From: a virus
Lineage: Duplodnaviria > Heunggongvirae > Uroviricota > Caudoviricetes
Length of the DNA stretch: 40,323 nucleotides
Direction: 5' to 3' (one strand)
IMG/VR virus record: IMGVR_UViG_650377933_000001
Span: 1 to 40,323 of that record
Shown: positions 30,722 to 39,795 of the stretch, piece by piece
Layout: each line of letters begins with the position of its first letter
Numbering within the stretch: the stretch's first letter is position 1
Notes under the pieces: generated by a model
Databases searched by the model: none
Told to the model about the DNA's origin: nothing
The model's input: the letters and a program-made list of their open reading frames with translations, nothing else
Translations under genes and position numbers: made by a program

Positions 30722-32071
30722 ATGGCTACGTGGCAACAGGGTATTAATTCTGGTGGTTTTCTGGCTGGAATTGGTGCGCAAAATGAGAATGCGCCAAAGG
30801 CAAGCGACATTAACGCAACGCTTGGTCTGATTCGCGAAAACAATGAACTGGCTCGCTCAGGTGCAAATAACGTTGGTCTGACCGCGTTACGTGGTCTGGC
30901 TGGAGTTGCTGATATTTACAATCAGGAACAGCAACAGAAAGCTATTAGTGCGTTCAATAAGGTTCACGCTGATGCATGGGCTTCTGGTGATCCATCTGGA
31001 CTATTTAAGTTTGCCCAGGAAAATCCAGCGTTTGTTGCACAGGCACAACAGGCGTTTTCCGGTCTTAATGAGCAGCAACGCAACGATATGGGCGATTTAG
31101 CCATGAGGGCTAACGTCGCTCTTTCCCAGGGACCGGAAGCCTACAGTAAATTCATTACTGACAACAAGGACAGGTTAAATCGCGTGGGGGCGAATGCTGA
31201 CTGGATGATTCAGACAGGTATCCAGAATCCAGAGCAGCTATCACACATGCTGACTACTATGTCTCTCGGTGCACTTGGGCCAGAAAAGGCTTTTGCTGTT
31301 CAGGATAAGATGGTTGGTCGCCAGCAGGAGCAGCAAAGAATTAACGAAACCATTCGCAATAATGACATGACGAATGCGAGGGCTATTAGGGGGCAGGATC
31401 TTTCCTATAAGGCTCAAATGGCAAGACTGAATCACGACAAGTATGTGTTTAAGCAGTCACAGGCGGCCCTTGAAAGAGCAGGACAACTTCAGGATATGGA
31501 TGTTTTGTCTCTTAACTCACAGATAGCAGCGACGGGAATTGATCCTCTAACCGGTAAAGCTGCAACGTCAGCCAGAATGTCTCAGGCTAAGAGATGGCTT
31601 GATGGCAACAATAATTACAACAATGCGTTGATTACTGGTGAGCGAGGGATAGAGAAAATTGATTCTTTGCTTGGTAAGAAGGAGCTTGAAGGTATCGGTC
31701 GCTTCGAAGGAAGAAATATAGATGGCTTCACAAGTGCTGAAGGGCTTGCAAACCGTAATGCGATAGAAGAATTAAAGTCGGGTGCGTTTGTCCAGAACGT
31801 GCAGACTATGCGAGGTATGGGTAGCCTCTCCAATGCTGAAGGCCAAAAACTGGAAAACCTGATCGCGAAACTCGATATAACACAGCCTGAAGAGGTCGTC
31901 AGAAAACAGTTATCTGAAATCCGATCGCAATATTCTGTATTTCAAAAGGTTGCAGCAAGGGAGGCTGAATCAATGGGATATAGTTCATCAGGTTATGACA
32001 CATATGTTAGTGAGCGAAAATCAGGAAGCGACAGCAATAAGTCCGGTTTCTCGTCTTTATGGGGTGATTAA
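30722..32071 (+). CDS. Ejection protein (P22 gp20 type)
   Basis: 449 aa in the gp20 slot. Confidence 0.7.
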
Positions 32072-34239
32072 TGGCTAAAGCATGGAAAGATGTTATCGCT
32101 TCTCCACAGTATCAGGCGTTAACTGAAGAACAGAAAGCACAGGCTCAAGCGCAATATTTTGATGAGGTTGTTGCCCCTAAGGCTGGTGACAAATGGGCTG
32201 AAGCAAGAGATCAGTTTTATGCAGCATACCCTCCGCATCAGCAGAAGAAAGAAGAACCATCATTGATGCAACAAGCTGGCGATTGGCTCACAGGTGGTCA
32301 AAGTGCAGGGCAAATTGCAGAACAGGCTGGTCGTGGTCTGGTAAACATACCATTTGACGTATTGCAGGGTGGCGCAAGTCTGATTAATGCAATCAGCCAG
32401 GGGCTTGGTGGCCCCAAGGTTTTGGATGATGTTTATCGTCCTGTCGATCGACCTACAGACCCTTACGCGCAAGCCGGTGAAACAATTGGTGGGTATCTCC
32501 TGCCAATTGGCACAGCGGCAAAAGCTGCTGGAGCGCCAGCAAAGCTCGCTGGAGATATCGGTTCCGCAGGAAACATGATTGCAGGTTCTCTTGCTGATGC
32601 TGCAAATCAGGAGGGCGACTTTGCACAAAATGCTGCCATTAACGGTGGTATCAATATTGGTGCTCAGGGGATACTTTCTGGGGCTGGAAGGATCTTAACC
32701 TCTAAATCACCTCAAGTTCTTGGTGGCGGGGCAATAAATTCCGCTGCTGATGTTTCGAAAATGGCAAAGTCTGGTACAGGAAGAGAGATTATTGCCAGAC
32801 AGTCAGCTAATGTGTCAGACGAAATAGCAAAAGCAGCAGATACTGCTGGAATAGATATCAACGCATTAACTCCTGGCATGAGATCAGGTAGTCGTGGTCT
32901 TGCTCAGGCGGAGGGGATTCTGGCGTCAAAGCCCGGAATTACACAGGATGCACACACCAAAGCATTCAGTGAAATAGAGTCGAAATTTAACTCAGCATTG
33001 GATGAGTTTGGGGCTGAAGCAGGAACTGCATCAGAAAAAAGTGCAGCCATAAAACAAAGGGTTTTGGCAAGTATTGATAAAATGAAAAATTCAGAAAAGG
33101 CCGCATGGGATAGCGTCCGCTCCACGATGCCTGACGCAAAGGCCAGAATGTCAAACCTGAACGCTACAATTCAGGGTGATATTTTGGCTGGCATGCCGCT
33201 AACTCCTGAGATGAAACAATTCGCATCTGCTTATGCTAAAACTGGTAAAAAAGGAATCACGTTTGATGCCATGAAGGCATGGCGAAGTAAACTTGCTGAC
33301 GCAGAGCAGAAGTATATAAGGTCTGGTGAGGCAAATACGGCAAGGCGCATGGCTGAGCTTCGTGATGCAGCAACGGAAGATATGCGCATAATGGCTCAAA
33401 ATGGCGGTTTTCTTGATGACTGGCAAAAAGCTAATGATCTGTCAAAGGCAAGATTTACAGCACAAGAACAGGCTGAAGCAGCGTTTGGTAGAGACCTTGC
33501 AACTGATCAGTTGGTAACTAATGGATCTAAGGCGTTGCAGGGTTCAGCAAAAAGTGGAACAGGTCAGTTCCATAAAATAATAAGCGCCCTACCTGAGTCG
33601 GAACGCGCGCCAGCAATTGCATCAATATTACAAGATGCGGTATCGCAAGGGGTACGCGGAGGTAAGTCTGAAGAGGCTGGAATTAAGCATATCGCGACTA
33701 TTCTTACCCCACAAAACGTGAAGGCAATTAGTCGATATTCTCCAGAGCTTGGTAGGATTGCTAGGGGGTTTGGAGAACTTGCAAGAGCAGCAACAAAGCC
33801 ACTTCGATATGTTGAACAAACAGGGCGCTCTATGCCAGCCATTAGCACTCTTGAGAATGGCCTTCATCCAGTTTTAGAGAGCGTATTGTCTGGCGCTTTT
33901 CCAACCGCTGGCGCTATCGCAGGGTTCTCTGGAGGAGGTGTTATTGGAGCAATAGTGGGTGGCGCTGCAGGTGGAGCAATTGATGCAATAGCAAAAGGAT
34001 CGATAGCGAAATTATCCGCAACCAGAAGTGGTCGTTACGCTATTGAAAAGGCTGTTCAAGAGGCGACAAAGGCAGTTAAAGTTGGGGCAAGTGATGGCGC
34101 ATTAGCGGCGGCGGAACGCAGATTTATGGCAAATAAGGCCGCCGTAAAAGCAATTCGCGATGCACTAGGAAACGAAGAGTTCCAGCGTTTGTCGAGGGCT
34201 GGGATTGTGGCATCGCTAAGCGGAATGACACAGGAGTAA
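32071..34239 (+). CDS. Ejection protein (P22 gp16 type, 722 aa)
   Basis: Largest ejection-module ORF in the gp16 slot; Ala/Gly-rich segments; I recall P22 gp16 as shorter, so this may carry an extension. Confidence 0.65.
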
Positions 34240-34334
34240 TTAGTCGTCCACGGATGGATTGATCTTATCTCGTGCTTCACATTTGAATGGTTTGTCATTA
34301 GGATGTTTCCGGTTTTTTAGATATGGAAATTGAT

Positions 34335-34754
34335 ATGAAGAGGATTATTAGCGTCGTTGCTGGCGCTATCATGTTATCTGGGTGCGCAACTATTGTTGGT
34401 GATGAAACGCAACTTGTGCAAGTGAACAGCAACCCTTCCGGTGCGAGCTTTAAGGTAAAAGATGAATCAGGCGTGATTGTTGCGCAAGGCAAGACTCCAC
34501 AAGGAGTAACTCTTGCCAAGTCAGATGGTAGTTATTTTGGCAAAAAGAGCTACCAGATCACTATGGAAAAGGATGGGTACGAACCAGTTACCCTGCCAAT
34601 CAAAGCCAATGCTAATGGTTGGTATATTGGTGGAAACCTTGTGTTTGGTGGGTTAATTGGTTGGCTTGCTGTAGATCCTTTTAATGGTGGGATGTATACA
34701 TTGAAGCCAAAAGAGGCAAATGCATCTCTTATACCTTCTACGAAGCAAGATTAA
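34335..34754 (+). CDS. Putative lipoprotein (139 aa), lysogenic-conversion or exclusion candidate
   Basis: Signal peptide with lipobox MKRIISVVAGAIMLSGC; followed by a strong intrinsic terminator, so probably expressed as its own unit. Confidence 0.6.
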   Translation: MKRIISVVAGAIMLSGCATIVGDETQLVQVNSNPSGASFKVKDESGVIVAQGKTPQGVTLAKSDGSYFGKKSYQITMEKDGYEPVTLPIKANANGWYIGGNLVFGGLIGWLAVDPFNGGMYTLKPKEANASLIPSTKQD

Positions 34755-34761
34755 GAAATGA

Positions 34762-34787
34762 AACCCACCGTCAGGTGGGTTTTTTAT
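34762..34787 (+). terminator. Rho-independent terminator after the lipoprotein gene
   Basis: AACCCACC-GTCA-GGTGGGTT followed by TTTTTAT. Confidence 0.6.
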
Positions 34788-34798
34788 AAGGAGAAATC

Positions 34799-34984
34799 AT
34801 GACCATAGAAGAACGCCTGAACAACATTGAGTTGAACCAAACCCTGCTTGACCAGCGACTTTCAGATCTTGAGCTTAAAGATCTTGATGCGCAAATATCA
34901 GAAGCAGAAGCCAAGCTCTCCAGCTTAAACCACCGCAAGAAGCAAATCCGCAACAGAATTACTCAGGGACGCGGAAGCTGTTGA
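34799..34984 (+). CDS. Small hypothetical coiled-coil protein (61 aa)
   Basis: AAGGAG RBS 5 nt upstream of ATG; 3' end overlaps the convergent 34959-35168 ORF by 26 nt. Confidence 0.35.
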   Translation: MTIEERLNNIELNQTLLDQRLSDLELKDLDAQISEAEAKLSSLNHRKKQIRNRITQGRGSC

Positions 34985-35168
34985 GGTGGGATGCTAGGTC
35001 TCTATCGTTAAAATCAAGGCTGCTAATCATTTCATTGTAAATGGCGTTTTTATCTTCCATTGGCAGTCTTGAGTAAACCAGACACAGAGCATATTTCAGG
35101 GAGTTTAGCTCTTTCTCTAGCTCTTCCTTGCTTGACGTTGTTGACTTAATAAACTGTTTTTTATTCAT
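34959..35168 (-). CDS. Small hypothetical protein (69 aa) translationally coupled to mnt
   Basis: ATG overlaps the mnt stop (ATGA); no family recognised. Confidence 0.4.
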   Translation of the reverse strand: MNKKQFIKSTTSSKEELEKELNSLKYALCLVYSRLPMEDKNAIYNEMISSLDFNDRDLASHLNSFRVPE

Positions 35169-35416
35169 TTTGCATCCTTACCATACATGGTCTTTAGCGT
35201 CTCAACATCGTGTTCAAGATCTATCAATCGTGATGCTATAGTTGCAAGGTCTAGTGCTTGAATGTGTTTATTTTTTTCGGTCCACGCTTCAAGTGCCGCG
35301 ACCATCTCAGCATTTAATGAACGAGAATTAGCCTCAGCCAGTTCAATAAGACGTTCCTTTATCTCTACAGGAAGCCTCAGATTCACTTGAGGGTTTTTGT
35401 ACTTACGATCAGACAT
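35165..35416 (-). CDS. mnt: Mnt-like ribbon-helix-helix repressor (83 aa)
   Basis: N-terminal ...NPQVNLRLPVEIKERLIELAEANSRSLNAEMVAAL fits the Arc/MetJ/Mnt RHH pattern; same length as P22 Mnt; divergent from arc/ant as in P22 immI. Confidence 0.7.
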   Translation of the reverse strand: MSDRKYKNPQVNLRLPVEIKERLIELAEANSRSLNAEMVAALEAWTEKNKHIQALDLATIASRLIDLEHDVETLKTMYGKDAK

Positions 35417-35419
35417 CGG

Positions 35420-35520
35420 CGCATCCTGAATAATTTTTTACCACAGGATATGTAGGTATCTATTGACTATCAATGCGTACCTAAATACTATGTATGCGTA
35501 CCACATACAACGGAGGATGC
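35420..35520. promoter_or_regulatory. immI-like control region: candidate Pant promoter and Arc/Mnt operator repeats
   Basis: -35 TTGACT (35463-35468), 17-nt spacer, -10 TACTAT (35486-35491); palindrome ATTGACTATCAAT; direct repeat ATGCGTACC x2; inverted GTATG...CATAC. Confidence 0.5.
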
Positions 35521-35521
35521 A

Positions 35522-35662
35522 ATGAAGGTAAAAACACTGCGTATGCCAGAGAAGCTAGAAAAAATTCTTGAAGAAAAAGCAAAGGAAGAGTGTCGCTCAT
35601 TCAGCGCAGAAGTAATTAAACGGGTGCTGGACAGCCTGAGGAGAGAGGGGATAACGGTGTGA
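35522..35662 (+). CDS. arc: Arc-like ribbon-helix-helix repressor (46 aa)
   Basis: Manual translation MKVKTLRMPEKLEKILEEKAKEECRSFSAEVIKRVLDSLRREGITV; GGAGGA RBS; beta-strand then two helices typical of RHH; precedes ant. Confidence 0.55.
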   Translation: MKVKTLRMPEKLEKILEEKAKEECRSFSAEVIKRVLDSLRREGITV

Positions 35663-35760
35663 TTCGCTTGGATGCGGCAAAGAAATCAAAACAGTGAAGC
35701 CCCAACTGCGGGAACAGTCAGGGCTTCGGTATCGTAAAACCACGCATAGGAATTAACGAC

Positions 35761-36684
35761 ATGACGAGTGTAGCAATTGCAGAACATACAATCAACGTTC
35801 CATTCCACGGAACAAATCTCTTTTTGGTCAGCATTAACAATGAACCTTACGTTCCTATGAAACCCGTTGTAGAAGGCATGGGTATGGTTTGGGCTGCTCA
35901 ATTTGTTAAATTAAAACAGAGATTTGTCAAAGGTATTTCGGAAATCGAAATACCTTCTGCTGGCGGTAAACAGTTAATGATATGCCTTGCCTTTCGTAAG
36001 TTTGCGGCTTGGCTTTCAAGCATTCAGCCTAACAAAGTCCGCCCTGAAATCCGCGACAAGGTAATCCGGTATCAGGAAGAGTGTGACGATGTGCTCTACG
36101 AGTACTGGACTAAAGGTCATGTAGTTAACCCACGCAAAGCTAAAAAGGCGTTGCCGGGTAAAATCACCACTGAACAGCAGGAAGCCATTAAACAACTCGT
36201 CATGAGTCGCGGTCAGTCTCTGCCAAAGGAAAAACAGGCTAAGGCGATGATCACCATGTGGTCGTCACTGAAATCCCATTTTGGATGTTCATACAAAGAA
36301 ATCAGTGAGGAGCAGTTTACCGAAGCACTGTCACTTGCAGCTCGAGTTCCGCTTGAAGGTGAGTTCATTGGCAAACAAGAGAAGAAAACCAACGAGCTTT
36401 CTGCAAAAGAAGCAAACAGCCTTGTATGGTTATGGGATTATGCCAACCGCTCACAGGCATTATTCCGCGAACTGTATCCGGCATTAAAACAAATTCAATC
36501 GAACTATTCCGGCAGATGCTACGACTACGGTCATGAATTCTCGTATGTTATCGGAATGGCGAGAGACGTTTTAATCAATCACACACGAGATGTTGATATC
36601 AATGAGCCAGACGGACCAACGAATCTTTCCGCATGGATGAGACTTAAGAATAAAGAATTACCTCCTTCAGTACATAACTACTGA
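35761..36684 (+). CDS. ant: Antirepressor Ant (307 aa)
   Basis: Large ORF downstream of arc in the P22 immI arrangement; followed by an intrinsic terminator. Call rests mainly on synteny and size. Confidence 0.7.
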
Positions 36685-36794: not shown

Positions 36795-37304
36795 TTACCT
36801 ACCATGATTCTCATGATAACCATAGGTCTTTTCAGCCTCACGCCTTACAGCAATTGCATCATCGAGACTCTTAAAGTATCCGAGATTAATGCGCTTCCCT
36901 GCGTCGCTAATATATGCCACCCACTTTTTATGGGTCTTATGCCATGAAACCCCAGCGCACCCAGATGTATTGTTTGTGTATTTAGATTTGTTTTTTAGGT
37001 TTTCACCGAGACTAACTAGACGCAGGTTGTCTATTGAATTATTTAACCCGTTACCATCTTTATGGTCAATTTGCATTCCGGAAGGGATTTCACCATAAAA
37101 CATTTCCCATATTATCCTATGGGCGGCGTATATTTTATCTTGATACCTAATAATTATATAAGAGGTTTTCCTGTTCTTGTCCTTGAATATATGTCCTGCA
37201 GGCTTTTCTTTAGAGATATTAAACATTTTGGGTCTTGAAAGATATTGGTCACTCCAGTACAGGAGTCCATCGTCTTTTAATACGAATACTTCGTTCCAGT
37301 TCAT
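36795..37304 (-). CDS. HNH homing endonuclease with C-terminal AP2-like DNA-binding domain (169 aa)
   Basis: Start at MNWNEVFVLK with AAAGGTGG RBS; HNH motif ...QIDHKDGNGLNNSIDNLRLV...; C-terminal ...SGCAGVSWHKTHKKWVAYI...GYF...AIAVRREAEKTYGY resembles AP2 domains. The longer track ORF runs antisense into the tailspike start. Confidence 0.75.
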   Translation of the reverse strand: MNWNEVFVLKDDGLLYWSDQYLSRPKMFNISKEKPAGHIFKDKNRKTSYIIIRYQDKIYAAHRIIWEMFYGEIPSGMQIDHKDGNGLNNSIDNLRLVSLGENLKNKSKYTNNTSGCAGVSWHKTHKKWVAYISDAGKRINLGYFKSLDDAIAVRREAEKTYGYHENHGR

Positions 37305-37392
37305 GTTAACCACCTTTAAATAAAGTGCACTCATTATACAAAAAAACATGCTAGCAATGAATATTGCTGGCTTAACATATAGAGAAATTAAA

Positions 37393-39795
37393 ATGACAGA
37401 TTCAATAAATGCCAATGTTGTAGTGAGTATGCCTTCGCAACTCTTCACTATGGCGCGTTCTTTTAAAGCGGTTGCCAATGGCAAAATTTATATCGGTAAA
37501 ATTGACACTGACCCGGTAAATCCAGAAAACCAGATTCAGGTTTATGTAGAGAATGAAGATGGCTCTCACGTTCCTGTTGCACAGCCAATCATCATTAACG
37601 CTGGCGGGTATCCGGTATATAACGGACAGATTGCCAAATTCGTAACTGTACAGGGCCATTCTATGGCTGTTTATGATGCGTATGGTGCGCAGCAGTTCTA
37701 TTTTCCTAATGTGCTGAAGTATGACCCTGATCAGTTACGGCAGCAATTAGAAGACCCGGATGGTTCTAAAAAATATCCAGAATTGCAGATTGCACGATGG
37801 CGTGATGACAAAGACGTTCGCGGTTGGGGGGCTATCAGTGATGGAATAACTGACGCTACTGAGGCATTCTCTAACGCAGGCTATAGAATGTTTGTTCCTG
37901 ATGGCGATTTTGCAGTAAATACTCTCGAAGTTGATGTATCTTCTGCTCGAGGTATTGGGAGGATTGTTGCAGATAATGGCTCTCTTATTTCAGTTTCTCG
38001 TCTGCTTGAAACTGACAAACTTGCGCAGAGAAAAATGATGGAACCTTTTTTTGGTTTTCAGGGAGAAACAAACACAGAAATTTACCCTAATGCCAGAAAT
38101 GCGTTACAGGGGATCGCATATTGCCGTGTTAATGGCATTGAAAAACTATTTGTCACACAACGGCCTGTTGGGCCGACCTGGTCAGATAAAGAAAGAGTTC
38201 GTATTGTTGAGTTTAATCTTTATGATGATGGAAGGGTAGTAAACCATGTTGCGTATTCTCCAGAATTAAACCTTGGGCACGGTTTTGATCTTTCTGCCAT
38301 GGTGGAGAATGGTCAAGTATATTTATATACATCAAGTGTAACCAATTCAGGTGAAGATGGGGAGTCTGCAGGCAAAGGGTTTAGTAAAATAACTTGGCGA
38401 GGGGCAGGAACAACTCAGTCTGACGTAAAAAGTTATAATGTATGGGGGATTACTGGTAGCGGTCACCCATTTCAAGATTACAATCGTGCAGGAATTGCCA
38501 TTTCTTCTGACGGTCGTCTTTTAATAATGGTTAATACACCAAAGAGTGATGCCGCTAAACGAACTGTATTTATATACGATAAAATATCAATTGATAAACT
38601 TGAAGATAAAACATTAGCAAACCCCATGTTTGTTTGGGAAATGAGCGACTCACCTTCTGAAGGCGCTTACTCTGTACAAGGTATTGCGTCTGATGGAAGA
38701 TATATACATATACTTAAGGGAGGGGCTAACGCTTTTGGAAAGCATCATATCTTTACATATGATTTAACAGGTAATTTACTAAGAAAATTAGATATCGATG
38801 ATGCAAGGTCGCAATATGGGCGCGATGGGTTGCTTAACCATCCAACTCTTGGGAATCCAGCCAGATTTGAGCCGGAAGGTCTAACTATTCGTGGTGAAGA
38901 AATAATTATAAGCTGCATAGAAACATGGAGGGCAGGAGCTAATATTGTAAACTGGCGTGGAAGAAGATGGGCTGCATCATCCATTGAGACTTCTGGAATA
39001 ATTGGTGTCCCTCCATCAAATGGCTCTTATTGGGTAGAAACAACCAAGGATGCAAATTCTGGAGATTGGAGTCCTGAAATAGATTATGGATGGGGAAGTA
39101 GCTATTCTCTTGAGAAAAAGACAATTTACTCTATACGACCAGCGACTGGTAACAACGATGATCAGAACCTTAATTCTGGCATAACCAATGCTTCAAGTAA
39201 TGCAGGTGTAGATGCCGGAGAAAGCGGGCGAAATATATCATTTAGATGGCGCAATGCTTTTAATATTGTTGCATTTAGCGAACGTCTTGGTGAATACTTC
39301 AACGCTATTATGTATGATAATAGCTCAAGACTAAGAATATACGATCAGCAAAACGGTAGTGATAACACTGTTTATGGCTCAATCCAGGCACTATTTACGT
39401 CATCATTTAAGGGATTGATTTTAAGGGGTAGGGGGGTATCAGCATCAAATAGTTCCTATATTAGGTTACATTCATCTGATGATCCAAACTACCCAAATTC
39501 GATCATTGAAGGAACAAGAACAGATGGAAGTTTTTCCAGGGAAACAGATTCAAACGGAACCACTACATTCGCATCGGACTCAGAGCACGAACCGTTGCGT
39601 ATCAGAAGGGCTTCAGATGGTTTGTTGTTTGCATACGAGAAAGTAAGAGGTACAACTCTCTTTGGAATTTATAGAGGCTCCGGTTCACCTGAGGGTGTTG
39701 TGACCGCACCTCAGGGGTCAATGTATATTGATTATAATGGTGATTGGTATCAAAAGAAAACAGGAACAGGAAACACAGGATGGGTGTTAAAATAG
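37393..39795 (+). CDS. Tailspike protein: P22 gp9-like N-terminal head-binding domain fused to a divergent receptor-binding domain (800 aa)
   Basis: From [60 protein letters not shown]... the first ~115 aa match recalled P22 gp9; the remainder does not resemble the P22 endorhamnosidase as I recall it. Confidence 0.8.

What the first reader, a model, noticed from the sequence alone, without database searches (positions are those of the whole stretch)
34959..35416. mnt-like RHH repressor translationally coupled to a downstream 69-aa ORF
The Mnt-like gene stop overlaps the start of a 69-aa ORF (ATGA), implying a bicistronic unit. RHH DNA-binding proteins followed by a small coupled gene are also the architecture of many type II toxin-antitoxin and abortive-infection modules, so this pair could be more than a simple maintenance repressor.
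Basis: inference. Interest (0 to 1): 0.5.

Follow-up and report, generated by a model that had tools for sequence, protein, structure and literature searches.

The report
Small orphan gene coupled to mnt
A real, conserved 69-residue gene of unknown function is co-translated with the Mnt-like repressor of a P22-like prophage, but it behaves as swappable prophage cargo rather than as the toxin half of a toxin-antitoxin pair.

Summary
On the minus strand an 83-aa Mnt-like ribbon-helix-helix (RHH) gene (35416-35165) overlaps a 69-aa ORF (35168-34959) by ATGA. A Shine-Dalgarno AAGGA lies inside the last mnt codons. The setting is a complete P22-type immI region: divergent Pmnt/Pant promoters, palindromes, arc, sar RNA and ant.

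The 69-aa ORF is a real gene. Its dN/dS is 0.06-0.16 and it matches phrog_16466. Homologs down to 39% identity occur in Escherichia, Salmonella, Providencia and Proteus P22-like prophages, always in the mnt operon. The Shine-Dalgarno is kept in 12 of 12 junctions and ATGA in 10 of 12.

The toxin-antitoxin reading is not supported:
- No toxin, defence or Pfam family matches, and there is no informative fold match. The model is a hydrophilic three-helix protein.
- Identical copies sit behind Mnt partners only 33-35% identical to each other.
- Two lineages have another gene between mnt and the ORF.
- Other cargo genes occupy the same mnt-coupled slot in related prophages, and close Mnt relatives lack the ORF.

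The ORF always overlaps, tail to tail, a convergent 61-aa coiled-coil gene that also occurs without it.

Best reading: an orphan accessory gene of the Pmnt operon, presumably made with Mnt, with unknown biochemical function. Interest is modest.

The parts
35445..35473 (-). Pmnt-like sigma-70 promoter (-35 TTGATA, 17-nt spacer, -10 TATCCT), back to back with a Pant-like promoter on the + strand (35463-35491)
   Evidence: Consensus scan. The position and divergent arrangement match the annotated P22 Pmnt/Pant. Activity was not tested.
35449..35487 (.). 18-nt inverted repeat (78% complementary) across both -35 boxes, a candidate Arc or Mnt operator. A second palindrome, TGTATGTGGTACGCATACA, lies at 35491-35509.
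   Evidence: The assignment rests on analogy with the P22 Oarc and Omnt features. Which repressor binds which site is inferred.
35165..35416 (-). Mnt-like RHH repressor gene, 83 aa
   Evidence: Pfam Arc PF03869 at E 3.2e-10. PDB 1mnt Mnt repressor at E 3e-5 over residues 8-51. 32% global identity to P22 Mnt and 95% to a CUS-3 gene annotated mnt.
35175..35179 (-). Shine-Dalgarno AAGGA for orf69, embedded in the last mnt codons, 6 nt before the ATG
   Evidence: Read from the sequence. Kept at the same spacing in 12 of 12 homologous junctions.
34959..35168 (-). orf69: 69-aa, 8.1-kDa, pI 5.8, hydrophilic three-helix protein; distal cistron of the mnt operon; ATGA overlap with mnt
   Evidence: phrog_16466 at E 5.5e-51. 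dN/dS 0.06-0.16. AlphaFold2 model with helices at 7-34, 37-51 and 55-64, mean pLDDT 77. Homologs.
34799..34984 (+). orf61: convergent 61-aa coiled-coil gene whose 3' end overlaps the orf69 3' end by 26 nt. It lies on the late-operon strand, so it is antisense to any mnt-orf69 transcript that reaches the hairpin.
   Evidence: phrog_7586 at E 3.3e-44. dN/dS 0.06-0.19. Present next to every orf69 homolog examined and in all 76 E. coli records that carry orf69. It also occurs without orf69.
34761..34782 (.). Bidirectional hairpin, the likely terminator of the mnt-orf69 transcript on the minus strand and of the upstream lipoprotein gene on the plus strand. It is homologous to the 3' end of P22 mnt.
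   Evidence: Terminator scan. RNA fold -14.2 and -16.2 kcal/mol, z -3.5 and -4.1. Alignment to the P22 mnt end shows 21 of 23 positions identical over AAAAAACCCACCTGACGGTGGGT.
35522..35662 (+). Arc-like repressor gene, 46 aa
   Evidence: Pfam Arc at E 1.2e-7.
35693..35759 (-). sar antisense RNA
   Evidence: Rfam RF00262, 76.6 bits, E 2.5e-15.
35761..36684 (+). Antirepressor Ant, 307 aa
   Evidence: Pfam P22_AR_N at E 9e-40 and P22_AR_C at E 6e-30.

Best explanation
orf69 is a genuine small protein gene and the distal cistron of the Pmnt operon in the immI region of a P22-like (Lederbergvirus) prophage.

What the sequence and comparisons show. Transcription would start at a Pmnt-like promoter at about 35473-35445. 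It would read through mnt and orf69, cross the convergent orf61 gene in antisense, and reach a hairpin at 34782-34761. Ribosomes can load on orf69 either by re-initiation at the ATGA overlap or directly at the AAGGA embedded in the last mnt codons.

What is inferred about timing. orf69 should be made whenever Mnt is made: in the lysogen and early after infection. By analogy with P22, it should be shut off when Arc represses Pmnt.

What is inferred about its role. The gene is exchangeable cargo sitting in an mnt-coupled slot, not a cognate partner of Mnt. The product is an 8-kDa hydrophilic, cytoplasmic three-helix protein with no catalytic motif. I infer that it works by binding another macromolecule in the lysogen. 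My best guess is a prophage-protective or immunity-circuit role, with a target in a P22-like phage such as Ant or the late-strand orf61 product. That guess is unproven.
For: Anatomy:
- ATGA overlap and Shine-Dalgarno.
- Divergent promoters and palindromes.
- arc, sar and ant in P22 order.
- Hairpin after orf61, homologous to the P22 mnt 3' end.

Real gene:
- dN/dS 0.06-0.16 against copies of 78-83% identity.
- phrog_16466.
- Annotated as a CDS in phages Emek and Kapi1 and by RefSeq.

Tied to the mnt operon:
- More than 15 contexts in Escherichia, Salmonella, Providencia and Proteus all place it downstream of mnt. The Shine-Dalgarno is kept in 12 of 12 and ATGA in 10 of 12.

Cargo rather than partner:
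- 98.6% identical orf69 follows Mnt proteins 41% identical (window versus Kapi1).
- Identical orf63 and orf64 follow Mnt proteins 33-35% identical.
- The DNA homology block starts only about 15-30 nt before the orf69 ATG.
- The same slot holds a ClpP-like protease, a 105-aa gene or a 77-aa membrane gene, also overlapping or within 2 nt of mnt.
- orf69 is in 73 of 5426 complete E. coli genomes. At least 128 more genomes matched only through the mnt part or the 43-nt junction.

Protein properties: pI 5.8, GRAVY -0.65, three helices.
Against: No expression data exist for this locus. In the Kapi1 lysogen RNA-seq, mnt itself was below the detection threshold. The orf69 homolog Kapi1_062 is merely not on the paper's list of undetected genes (PMC12922286). 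Expression in the lysogen is therefore inferred from P22 biology, not shown. The promoter and terminator are consensus matches only. The proposed binding function and targets have no direct support. A generic cargo gene might be expected in other phage hotspots too, yet this family is seen only in the mnt operon. That hints at a closer tie to the immI circuit than the word 'cargo' implies.
Confidence: 0.6

Rival explanations
1. Type II toxin-antitoxin or abortive-infection module. The Mnt-like RHH protein doubles as an antitoxin that binds and neutralises orf69, a small toxin, and autoregulates the operon.
For: The architecture fits: an upstream RHH gene, an ATGA overlap and a small downstream gene. 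Mnt gives weak sub-threshold matches to antitoxin RHH families: FitA-like E 4e-4 and RelB-like E 3e-3. In every locus seen, an mnt gene is present in the same operon. The surrounding region does collect toxin-antitoxin genes in relatives, such as HicA in SEN22 and a Panacea-domain gene in UMNF18.
Confidence: 0.07
2. The functional unit is the convergent pair orf69/orf61, not mnt/orf69. orf69 would be made in the lysogen from Pmnt. orf61 would be made from antiterminated late transcripts. The two would antagonise each other through protein binding or through antisense pairing of their overlapping 3' ends. This would be a life-cycle switch or an antidote-like pair in which orf69 depends on orf61.
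For: orf61-family genes flank every orf69 homolog examined down to 39% identity. A 10-26-nt tail-to-tail overlap is kept even though both outer flanks have been exchanged many times. All 76 E. coli records with orf69 also carry orf61, while orf61 occurs alone in 56 genomes. That is the asymmetry expected if orf69 needs orf61. Both genes are under purifying selection. The whole of orf61 lies antisense inside the mnt-orf69 transcription unit.
Against: Overlapping genes have no intergenic recombination point, so co-inheritance is expected without any functional link. orf61 is the usual right-hand neighbour of the slot whatever cargo it holds, so orf69 lying next to it may simply reflect where the slot is. 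The 73 genomes represent few independent lineages. orf61 has no evident promoter of its own in this window.
Confidence: 0.2
3. orf69 is a Mnt-associated regulatory subunit made in fixed ratio to Mnt, acting as a co-repressor or modulator that tunes Pant/Pmnt control.
For: Translational coupling often serves fixed-ratio production of interacting proteins. The family is found only in mnt operons.
Against: The same partner-swapping argument applies as for the toxin-antitoxin rival. Mnt proteins 95% and 88% identical to this one work in phages without orf69, namely CUS-3 and SEN22. Intervening genes are present in Emek and Providencia.
Confidence: 0.08
4. orf69 is a chance or decaying ORF with no function.
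For: It is short, has no known domain and has a narrow taxonomic range.
Against: dN/dS is 0.06-0.16 with dS up to about 1.6-1.9. The reading frame is intact and the Shine-Dalgarno conserved down to 39% protein identity in four genera.
Confidence: 0.02

Closest known systems
Phage P22 immI region (mnt, arc, sar, ant) and the P22 mnt-orf59a transcription unit
   Same: The gene order and orientation are the same. Promoters are divergent and overlapping, with palindromic operator-like repeats. There is an RHH Mnt of 83 aa, and an Rfam sar hit between arc and ant. In P22 a small ORF of unknown function, orf59a, also lies between mnt and the annotated mnt terminator.
   Different: P22 orf59a is unrelated in sequence to orf69. 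It starts 99 nt after mnt and is not overlapped. P22 has no orf69 or orf61. This Mnt is only 32% identical to P22 Mnt and does not hit Pfam Repressor_Mnt.
Emek orf69 and Kapi1_062 (phrog_16466), annotated hypothetical proteins of Salmonella phage vB_SemP_Emek and Escherichia phage vB_EcoP_Kapi1
   Same: The proteins are 97-99% identical. They sit in the same immI position with the same convergent orf61 neighbour. Each overlaps its upstream gene by ATGA.
   Different: The upstream partner differs. Kapi1 has a 78-aa Arc-family protein 41% identical to this Mnt. Emek has a 77-aa membrane protein between mnt and orf69. Neither protein has been characterised.
Type II toxin-antitoxin operons with RHH antitoxins (for example ParD/ParE, RelB/RelE, FitA/FitB)
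   Same: An upstream RHH DNA-binding gene overlaps a small downstream gene by 4 nt in a two-gene operon.
   Different: There is no toxin family or fold. The pair is not co-inherited as a cognate unit. The RHH protein already has a separate, well-explained role at Pant, and the slot is shared with unrelated genes.
Prophage accessory genes ('morons') and lysogen-expressed exclusion genes in the gene 16 to gene 9 variable region of P22-like phages (for example sieA)
   Same: orf69 lies in the variable region between gene 16 and gene 9, described as very variable in the phage L genome paper (bioRxiv 10.1101/2020.10.05.325894). Its presence is patchy among close relatives. It is on the lysogenic strand, and sieA follows it on the same strand in some loci.
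   Different: It has no promoter or terminator of its own and borrows Pmnt and the mnt ribosomes. It is soluble rather than a membrane protein like SieA. No exclusion phenotype is known.
Type I toxin-antitoxin loci with convergent, 3'-overlapping transcripts (txpA/RatA, bsrG/SR4; recalled from the literature, not searched here)
   Same: orf69 and orf61 are convergent, with overlapping 3' ends.
   Different: orf69 is hydrophilic with no membrane helix (GRAVY -0.65). The antisense partner is itself a conserved protein-coding gene.

Membership tests
Type II toxin-antitoxin module (RHH antitoxin plus toxin) | Two adjacent co-oriented genes in one operon, usually overlapping, antitoxin first | tested here: met
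   ATGA overlap, both genes on the minus strand.
Type II toxin-antitoxin module (RHH antitoxin plus toxin) | Upstream protein carries a DNA-binding domain such as RHH | tested here: met
   Pfam Arc at E 3.2e-10.
Type II toxin-antitoxin module (RHH antitoxin plus toxin) | Downstream protein belongs to a recognised toxin family or fold | tested here: not met
Type II toxin-antitoxin module (RHH antitoxin plus toxin) | The two genes are inherited together as a cognate pair | tested here: not met
   Identical orf63 and orf64 follow Mnt partners 33-35% identical. Window versus Kapi1 is 41% for Mnt against 98.6% for orf69. Intervening genes occur in Emek and Providencia.
Type II toxin-antitoxin module (RHH antitoxin plus toxin) | Toxin arrests growth and the antitoxin neutralises it by direct binding | not testable with these tools
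   This needs expression experiments.
P22-type immI region / Mnt repressor | N-terminal RHH domain homologous to Mnt and Arc | tested here: met
   PDB 1mnt at E 3e-5 over residues 8-51 and Arc structures at E 4e-4. Pfam Arc.
P22-type immI region / Mnt repressor | About 83 aa with the Mnt C-terminal oligomerisation domain | tested here: inconclusive
   The length is 83 aa. tblastn aligns residues 8-80 to Mnt of P22-like phages at 33-44% identity. Pfam Repressor_Mnt PF11423 is not hit by this protein, whereas Mnt proteins of other loci do hit it.
P22-type immI region / Mnt repressor | Divergent from arc-ant, with overlapping promoters, palindromic operators and sar RNA | tested here: met
   compared with the P22 annotation.
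P22-type immI region / Mnt repressor | Represses Pant and maintains lysogeny | not testable with these tools
   This needs genetics or in vitro binding.
PHROG family phrog_16466 (unknown function) | Full-length match to the family profile | tested here: met
   E 5.5e-51, residues 1-69 against profile positions 1-69 of 69.
Prophage accessory gene (moron) | Patchy presence among otherwise closely related phages, with sharp homology boundaries at gene ends | tested here: met
   Absent from CUS-3, SEN22, P22 and L. Present in Kapi1 and Emek. The homology block is bounded about 15-30 nt before the orf69 ATG and at the orf61 start.
Prophage accessory gene (moron) | Own promoter and terminator (classical definition) | tested here: not met
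   No promoter-like site lies between mnt and orf69. The gene overlaps mnt and shares its transcription signals.
Type I toxin-antitoxin with convergent antisense partner | Small hydrophobic membrane-active toxin peptide | tested here: not met
   GRAVY -0.65, pI 5.8, three amphipathic helices and no membrane segment.

The most novel reading that the evidence does not exclude
orf69 is not passive cargo but part of an undescribed layer of the immI immunity circuit. One version: orf69, made in the lysogen, and the late-strand coiled-coil orf61 form a convergent, 3'-overlapping antagonistic pair that works as a life-cycle switch or antidote-like module. Another version: orf69 is a protein-level inhibitor of antirepressor from superinfecting heteroimmune P22-like phages. 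The evidence does not exclude either. The family is found only in mnt operons, it is always beside orf61, and it is independent of Mnt operator specificity.
Probability: 0.15. Interest if true: 0.6.

Novelty: new member of a known kind. Interest (0 to 1): 0.3.

Why it matters
The finding adds a conserved but uncharacterised small protein to one of the best-studied phage regulatory regions. It also shows that the position just after mnt is a translationally coupled expression slot that P22-like prophages fill with different cargo: orf69, a ClpP-like protease, and small membrane or unknown proteins. If orf69 acts on the antirepressor circuit or on superinfecting phages, it would be a new lysogen-protective factor. 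If it does nothing measurable, it is one more orphan gene. The case also warns that an RHH gene followed by an overlapping small gene is not enough to call a toxin-antitoxin system.

Tried and rejected
- **Family searches.** Pfam, NCBIfam and PADLOC gave nothing significant for orf69. The only Pfam hit, DUF5621 at E 0.068, is below threshold.
- **Exhaustive search of 1.84 billion representative proteins.** It returned only the family itself plus two eukaryote-like repeat proteins, P0047 and P0048. Their scores come from 6-8 repeated short stretches, so I treat them as spurious.
- **Profile search against PDB sequences.** This gave a marginal 37-residue match to the eIF4A/DDX6 RecA2 domain (E 6e-4). 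I rejected it: it covers a fragment of a 165-residue alpha/beta domain, whereas orf69 is modelled as all-helical.
- **'Hemolysin XhlA family' label.** RefSeq gives it to some extended orf61 calls. Pfam XhlA is only E 0.056 on orf61 and absent on the 92-aa Kapi1 version. I treat it as coiled-coil noise.
- **The 42-aa calls for the convergent ORF in Proteus.** These are gene-caller start choices; the full 60-aa frame is intact.
- **Literature.** No paper in the library discusses orf69, Kapi1_062 or a coupled gene downstream of mnt. Supplementary expression tables for Kapi1 were not available.

Full report
**Observation.** The window region 34959-35416 holds two minus-strand ORFs: an 83-aa gene at 35416-35165 and a 69-aa gene at 35168-34959. 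The stop codon of the first (TGA, 35167-35165) overlaps the start of the second (ATG, 35168-35166), giving ATGA. An AAGGA Shine-Dalgarno lies at 35179-35175, six bases before that ATG and inside the last codons of the upstream gene.

**Setting.**
- The 83-aa protein is an Arc/Mnt-type ribbon-helix-helix (RHH) protein. It matches Pfam Arc at E 3.2e-10 and the solved P22 Mnt structure 1mnt at E 3e-5. Global identity to P22 Mnt is 32%.
- Upstream lie back-to-back promoter-like sites: Pmnt-like on the minus strand at 35473-35445 and Pant-like on the plus strand at 35463-35491. An 18-nt inverted repeat at 35449-35487 spans both -35 boxes, and a second palindrome lies at 35491-35509.
- Next come a 46-aa Arc (35522-35662), an Rfam sar RNA (35693-35759, minus strand, 76.6 bits) and a 307-aa Ant (35761-36684, P22_AR_N and P22_AR_C domains).
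- To the left are a gp16-like ejection protein (32071-34239), a lipoprotein gene (34323-34754), a hairpin (34761-34782) and a 61-aa coiled-coil ORF on the plus strand (34799-34984). The 3' end of that ORF overlaps the 3' end of orf69 by 26 nt.
- This is the immI region of a P22-like (Lederbergvirus) prophage, in the same order as annotated P22. The whole window looks like one such prophage, judged from the ORF layout alone.

**Is orf69 a real gene?** Yes.
- It matches phrog_16466 end to end at E 5.5e-51.
- It is annotated in phages Emek (orf69) and Kapi1 (Kapi1_062) and by RefSeq.
- A search of 5.8 billion proteins found 46 relatives, all in E. coli or Salmonella, mostly above 94% identity with a few at 74-83%.
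- An exhaustive search and a profile search added 63-64-aa relatives of 39-49% identity from Providencia and Proteus.
- Against the 78-83% copies, dN/dS is 0.06-0.13 at dS 0.8-1.9. Against the near-identical Emek and Kapi1 copies it is 0.12-0.16.
- Residues 12-47 are the most conserved and the C-terminal tail the least.
- The AlphaFold2 model (mean pLDDT 77, above 90 for residues 21-40) has three helices at 7-34, 37-51 and 55-64.
- The protein is 8.1 kDa, pI 5.8, GRAVY -0.65, with no membrane segment.

**Is the coupling conserved?** I examined 12 junctions: the window, Kapi1, Emek, L006, L007, L009, L011, L012, L013, L019, L020 and L016.
- All 12 keep AAGGA (AAAGG in L013) at -11 to -7.
- Ten of the 12 keep a 4-nt overlap with an Arc/Mnt-family gene.
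- In Emek the overlap is with a 77-aa membrane-protein gene inserted between mnt and orf69.
- In Providencia (L009, L010) a 92-aa ORF lies between them, followed by a 20-nt gap.
- DNA alignment of the window, Kapi1 and Emek shows that the shared block begins only about 15-30 nt before the orf69 ATG and ends at the start codon of orf61.
- The last four or five Mnt codons (KDAK, KDGK, KEEK, KDEK) therefore travel with orf69, as its ribosome-binding region.

**Is Mnt a cognate partner?** No.
- The window and Kapi1 orf69 proteins are 98.6% identical, but their Mnt partners are 41% identical.
- The identical 63-aa protein P0049 follows a P22-type Mnt in L011 and a window-type Mnt in L012; these Mnt proteins are 35% identical.
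- The identical 64-aa protein P0051 follows two Mnt types that are 33% identical.
- Conversely, Mnt proteins 95% (CUS-3) and 88% (SEN22) identical to this one have no orf69.
- Phage L mnt is monocistronic, with a terminator directly after it.
- In complete E. coli genomes, orf69 is in 73 of 5426. At least 128 further genomes matched the 631-nt query only through its mnt part or the 43-nt junction.
- In related prophages the same position after mnt holds a ClpP-like protease with a 1-nt overlap, a 105-aa gene (phrog_19844) with a 4-nt overlap, or a 122-aa gene (phrog_2651).
- The position after mnt is therefore a shared, translationally coupled cargo slot.

**P22 itself.** In record BK000583, orf59a (59 aa, Gly/Pro/Lys-rich, unrelated to orf69) starts 99 nt after mnt on the same strand. 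The annotated mnt terminator lies after orf59a. P22 thus has a small unknown ORF in the mnt transcription unit, but it is neither overlapped nor homologous.

The window hairpin at 34761-34782 matches the P22 mnt 3' end (…AAAAAAACCACCTGACGGCGGGTT…) at 21 of 23 positions. In this phage and in Emek, the orf69/orf61 block therefore sits between one mnt end and a relic of a P22-type mnt end. The hairpin folds well on both strands (z -3.5 and -4.1) and is followed on the minus strand by a U-rich tract. It is the likely end of the mnt-orf69 transcript, which would then be antisense to all of orf61.

**The toxin-antitoxin reading.**
- Points in favour: the architecture, and weak sub-threshold similarity of Mnt to antitoxin RHH families.
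- Points against:
  - No toxin or defence family matches.
  - Mnt partners are swapped, other genes intervene in two lineages, and unrelated cargo shares the slot, as set out above.
- Toxicity cannot be tested here, so I give this reading about 7%.

**The convergent neighbour.**
- orf61 (phrog_7586, dN/dS 0.06-0.19) accompanies every orf69 homolog I examined.
- The tail-to-tail overlap is 26 nt in the E. coli type, 10 nt in Providencia and 23 nt in Proteus.
- All 76 E. coli records with orf69 also carry orf61.
- orf61 occurs without orf69 in 56 genomes and in one partial Salmonella phage record.
- The asymmetry fits a dependence of orf69 on orf61. It also fits plain linkage, because overlapping genes have no intergenic recombination point and orf61 is the usual right-hand neighbour of the slot whatever cargo it holds.
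- In this window orf61 starts 16 nt after the hairpin and has no room for its own promoter. I infer that it is read from late transcripts that pass terminators, as is known for P22 gene 9. This rests on established P22 knowledge and was not tested here.
- I give the 'functional pair' reading about 20%.

**Expression evidence.** The only relevant data are from a Kapi1 lysogen. There mnt (Kapi1_063) was below the detection threshold in LB and in simulated intestinal fluid. Kapi1_062 is not among the genes listed as undetected (PMC12922286), and no per-gene table was available. Expression of orf69 in lysogens therefore remains inferred from P22 Pmnt biology.

**Verdict.** The Mnt gene is an ordinary immI repressor. 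orf69 is a conserved orphan accessory gene that borrows the promoter and ribosomes of mnt. It is not a recognisable toxin and not a cognate partner of Mnt. Its biochemical function is unknown. My best guess is that it binds another macromolecule in the lysogen and is connected with immunity or superinfection. The family is already catalogued as phrog_16466 and as annotated hypothetical proteins, but it has not been characterised. Interest is modest at 0.3. The most novel reading not excluded is an undescribed immI layer involving orf61 or Ant, which I put at about 15%.

Noticed in passing
window 34799-34984 (+): A 61-aa coiled-coil gene (phrog_7586) runs convergent to orf69, with 26 nt of 3' overlap, and is under purifying selection. 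It starts 16 nt after a hairpin and has no room for a promoter, so it probably depends on read-through late transcription. RefSeq labels some extended versions 'hemolysin XhlA family', which Pfam does not support.
   Followed up: partly
window 34761-34782: A bidirectional hairpin matches the 3' end of P22 mnt, stop codon included, at 21 of 23 positions. It looks like a relic that marks where the orf69/orf61 block was joined.
   Followed up: yes
L015 2767-3539, L017 1764-2536, L018 1696-2261, L014 2711-3398: In related E. coli prophages the position just after mnt holds other genes. These are a 178-aa ClpP-like protease (1-nt overlap with mnt), a 105-aa phrog_19844 gene (4-nt overlap) and a 122-aa phrog_2651 gene beside a truncated mnt. 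The site behaves as a shared, translationally coupled cargo slot.
   Followed up: partly
window 36795-37484 (-): A 229-aa ORF with HNH_3 (E 2e-20) and a weak AP2 domain lies between ant and the tailspike gene. It resembles a homing-endonuclease-type insert, and Kapi1 has an HNH gene at the same place. Its TTG start and its overlap with the listed tailspike ORF start were not examined.
   Followed up: no
window 34323-34754 (+): A 143-aa lipoprotein (lipobox-type signal peptide, phrog_6823, weak PEGA domain) lies between the gp16-like gene and the hairpin. It is a candidate surface or exclusion accessory gene, and other prophages carry different genes here.
   Followed up: no
L005 2266-3120; L018 234-683; L011 2354-2701: The same variable region in relatives carries toxin-antitoxin or immunity-type genes. 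SEN22 has a HicA toxin with a DUF1902 partner. UMNF18 has a SocA/Panacea-domain protein. A metagenomic (Logan) contig, L011, carrying the same 63-aa protein as Providencia rettgeri, has a Rap1a-family immunity protein.
   Followed up: partly
L013 1247-1753; L001 2207-2736: Some immI regions carry two tandem mnt-like genes. L013 has 82-aa and 84-aa copies and CUS-3 has two genes annotated mnt. In L013, orf64 is coupled to the second copy.
   Followed up: no
window 35491-35509: A near-perfect palindrome, TGTATGTGGTACGCATACA, lies between the Pant-like promoter and arc. It occupies the position of the Mnt operator in P22. The terminator scan flagged it only as a hairpin.
   Followed up: no
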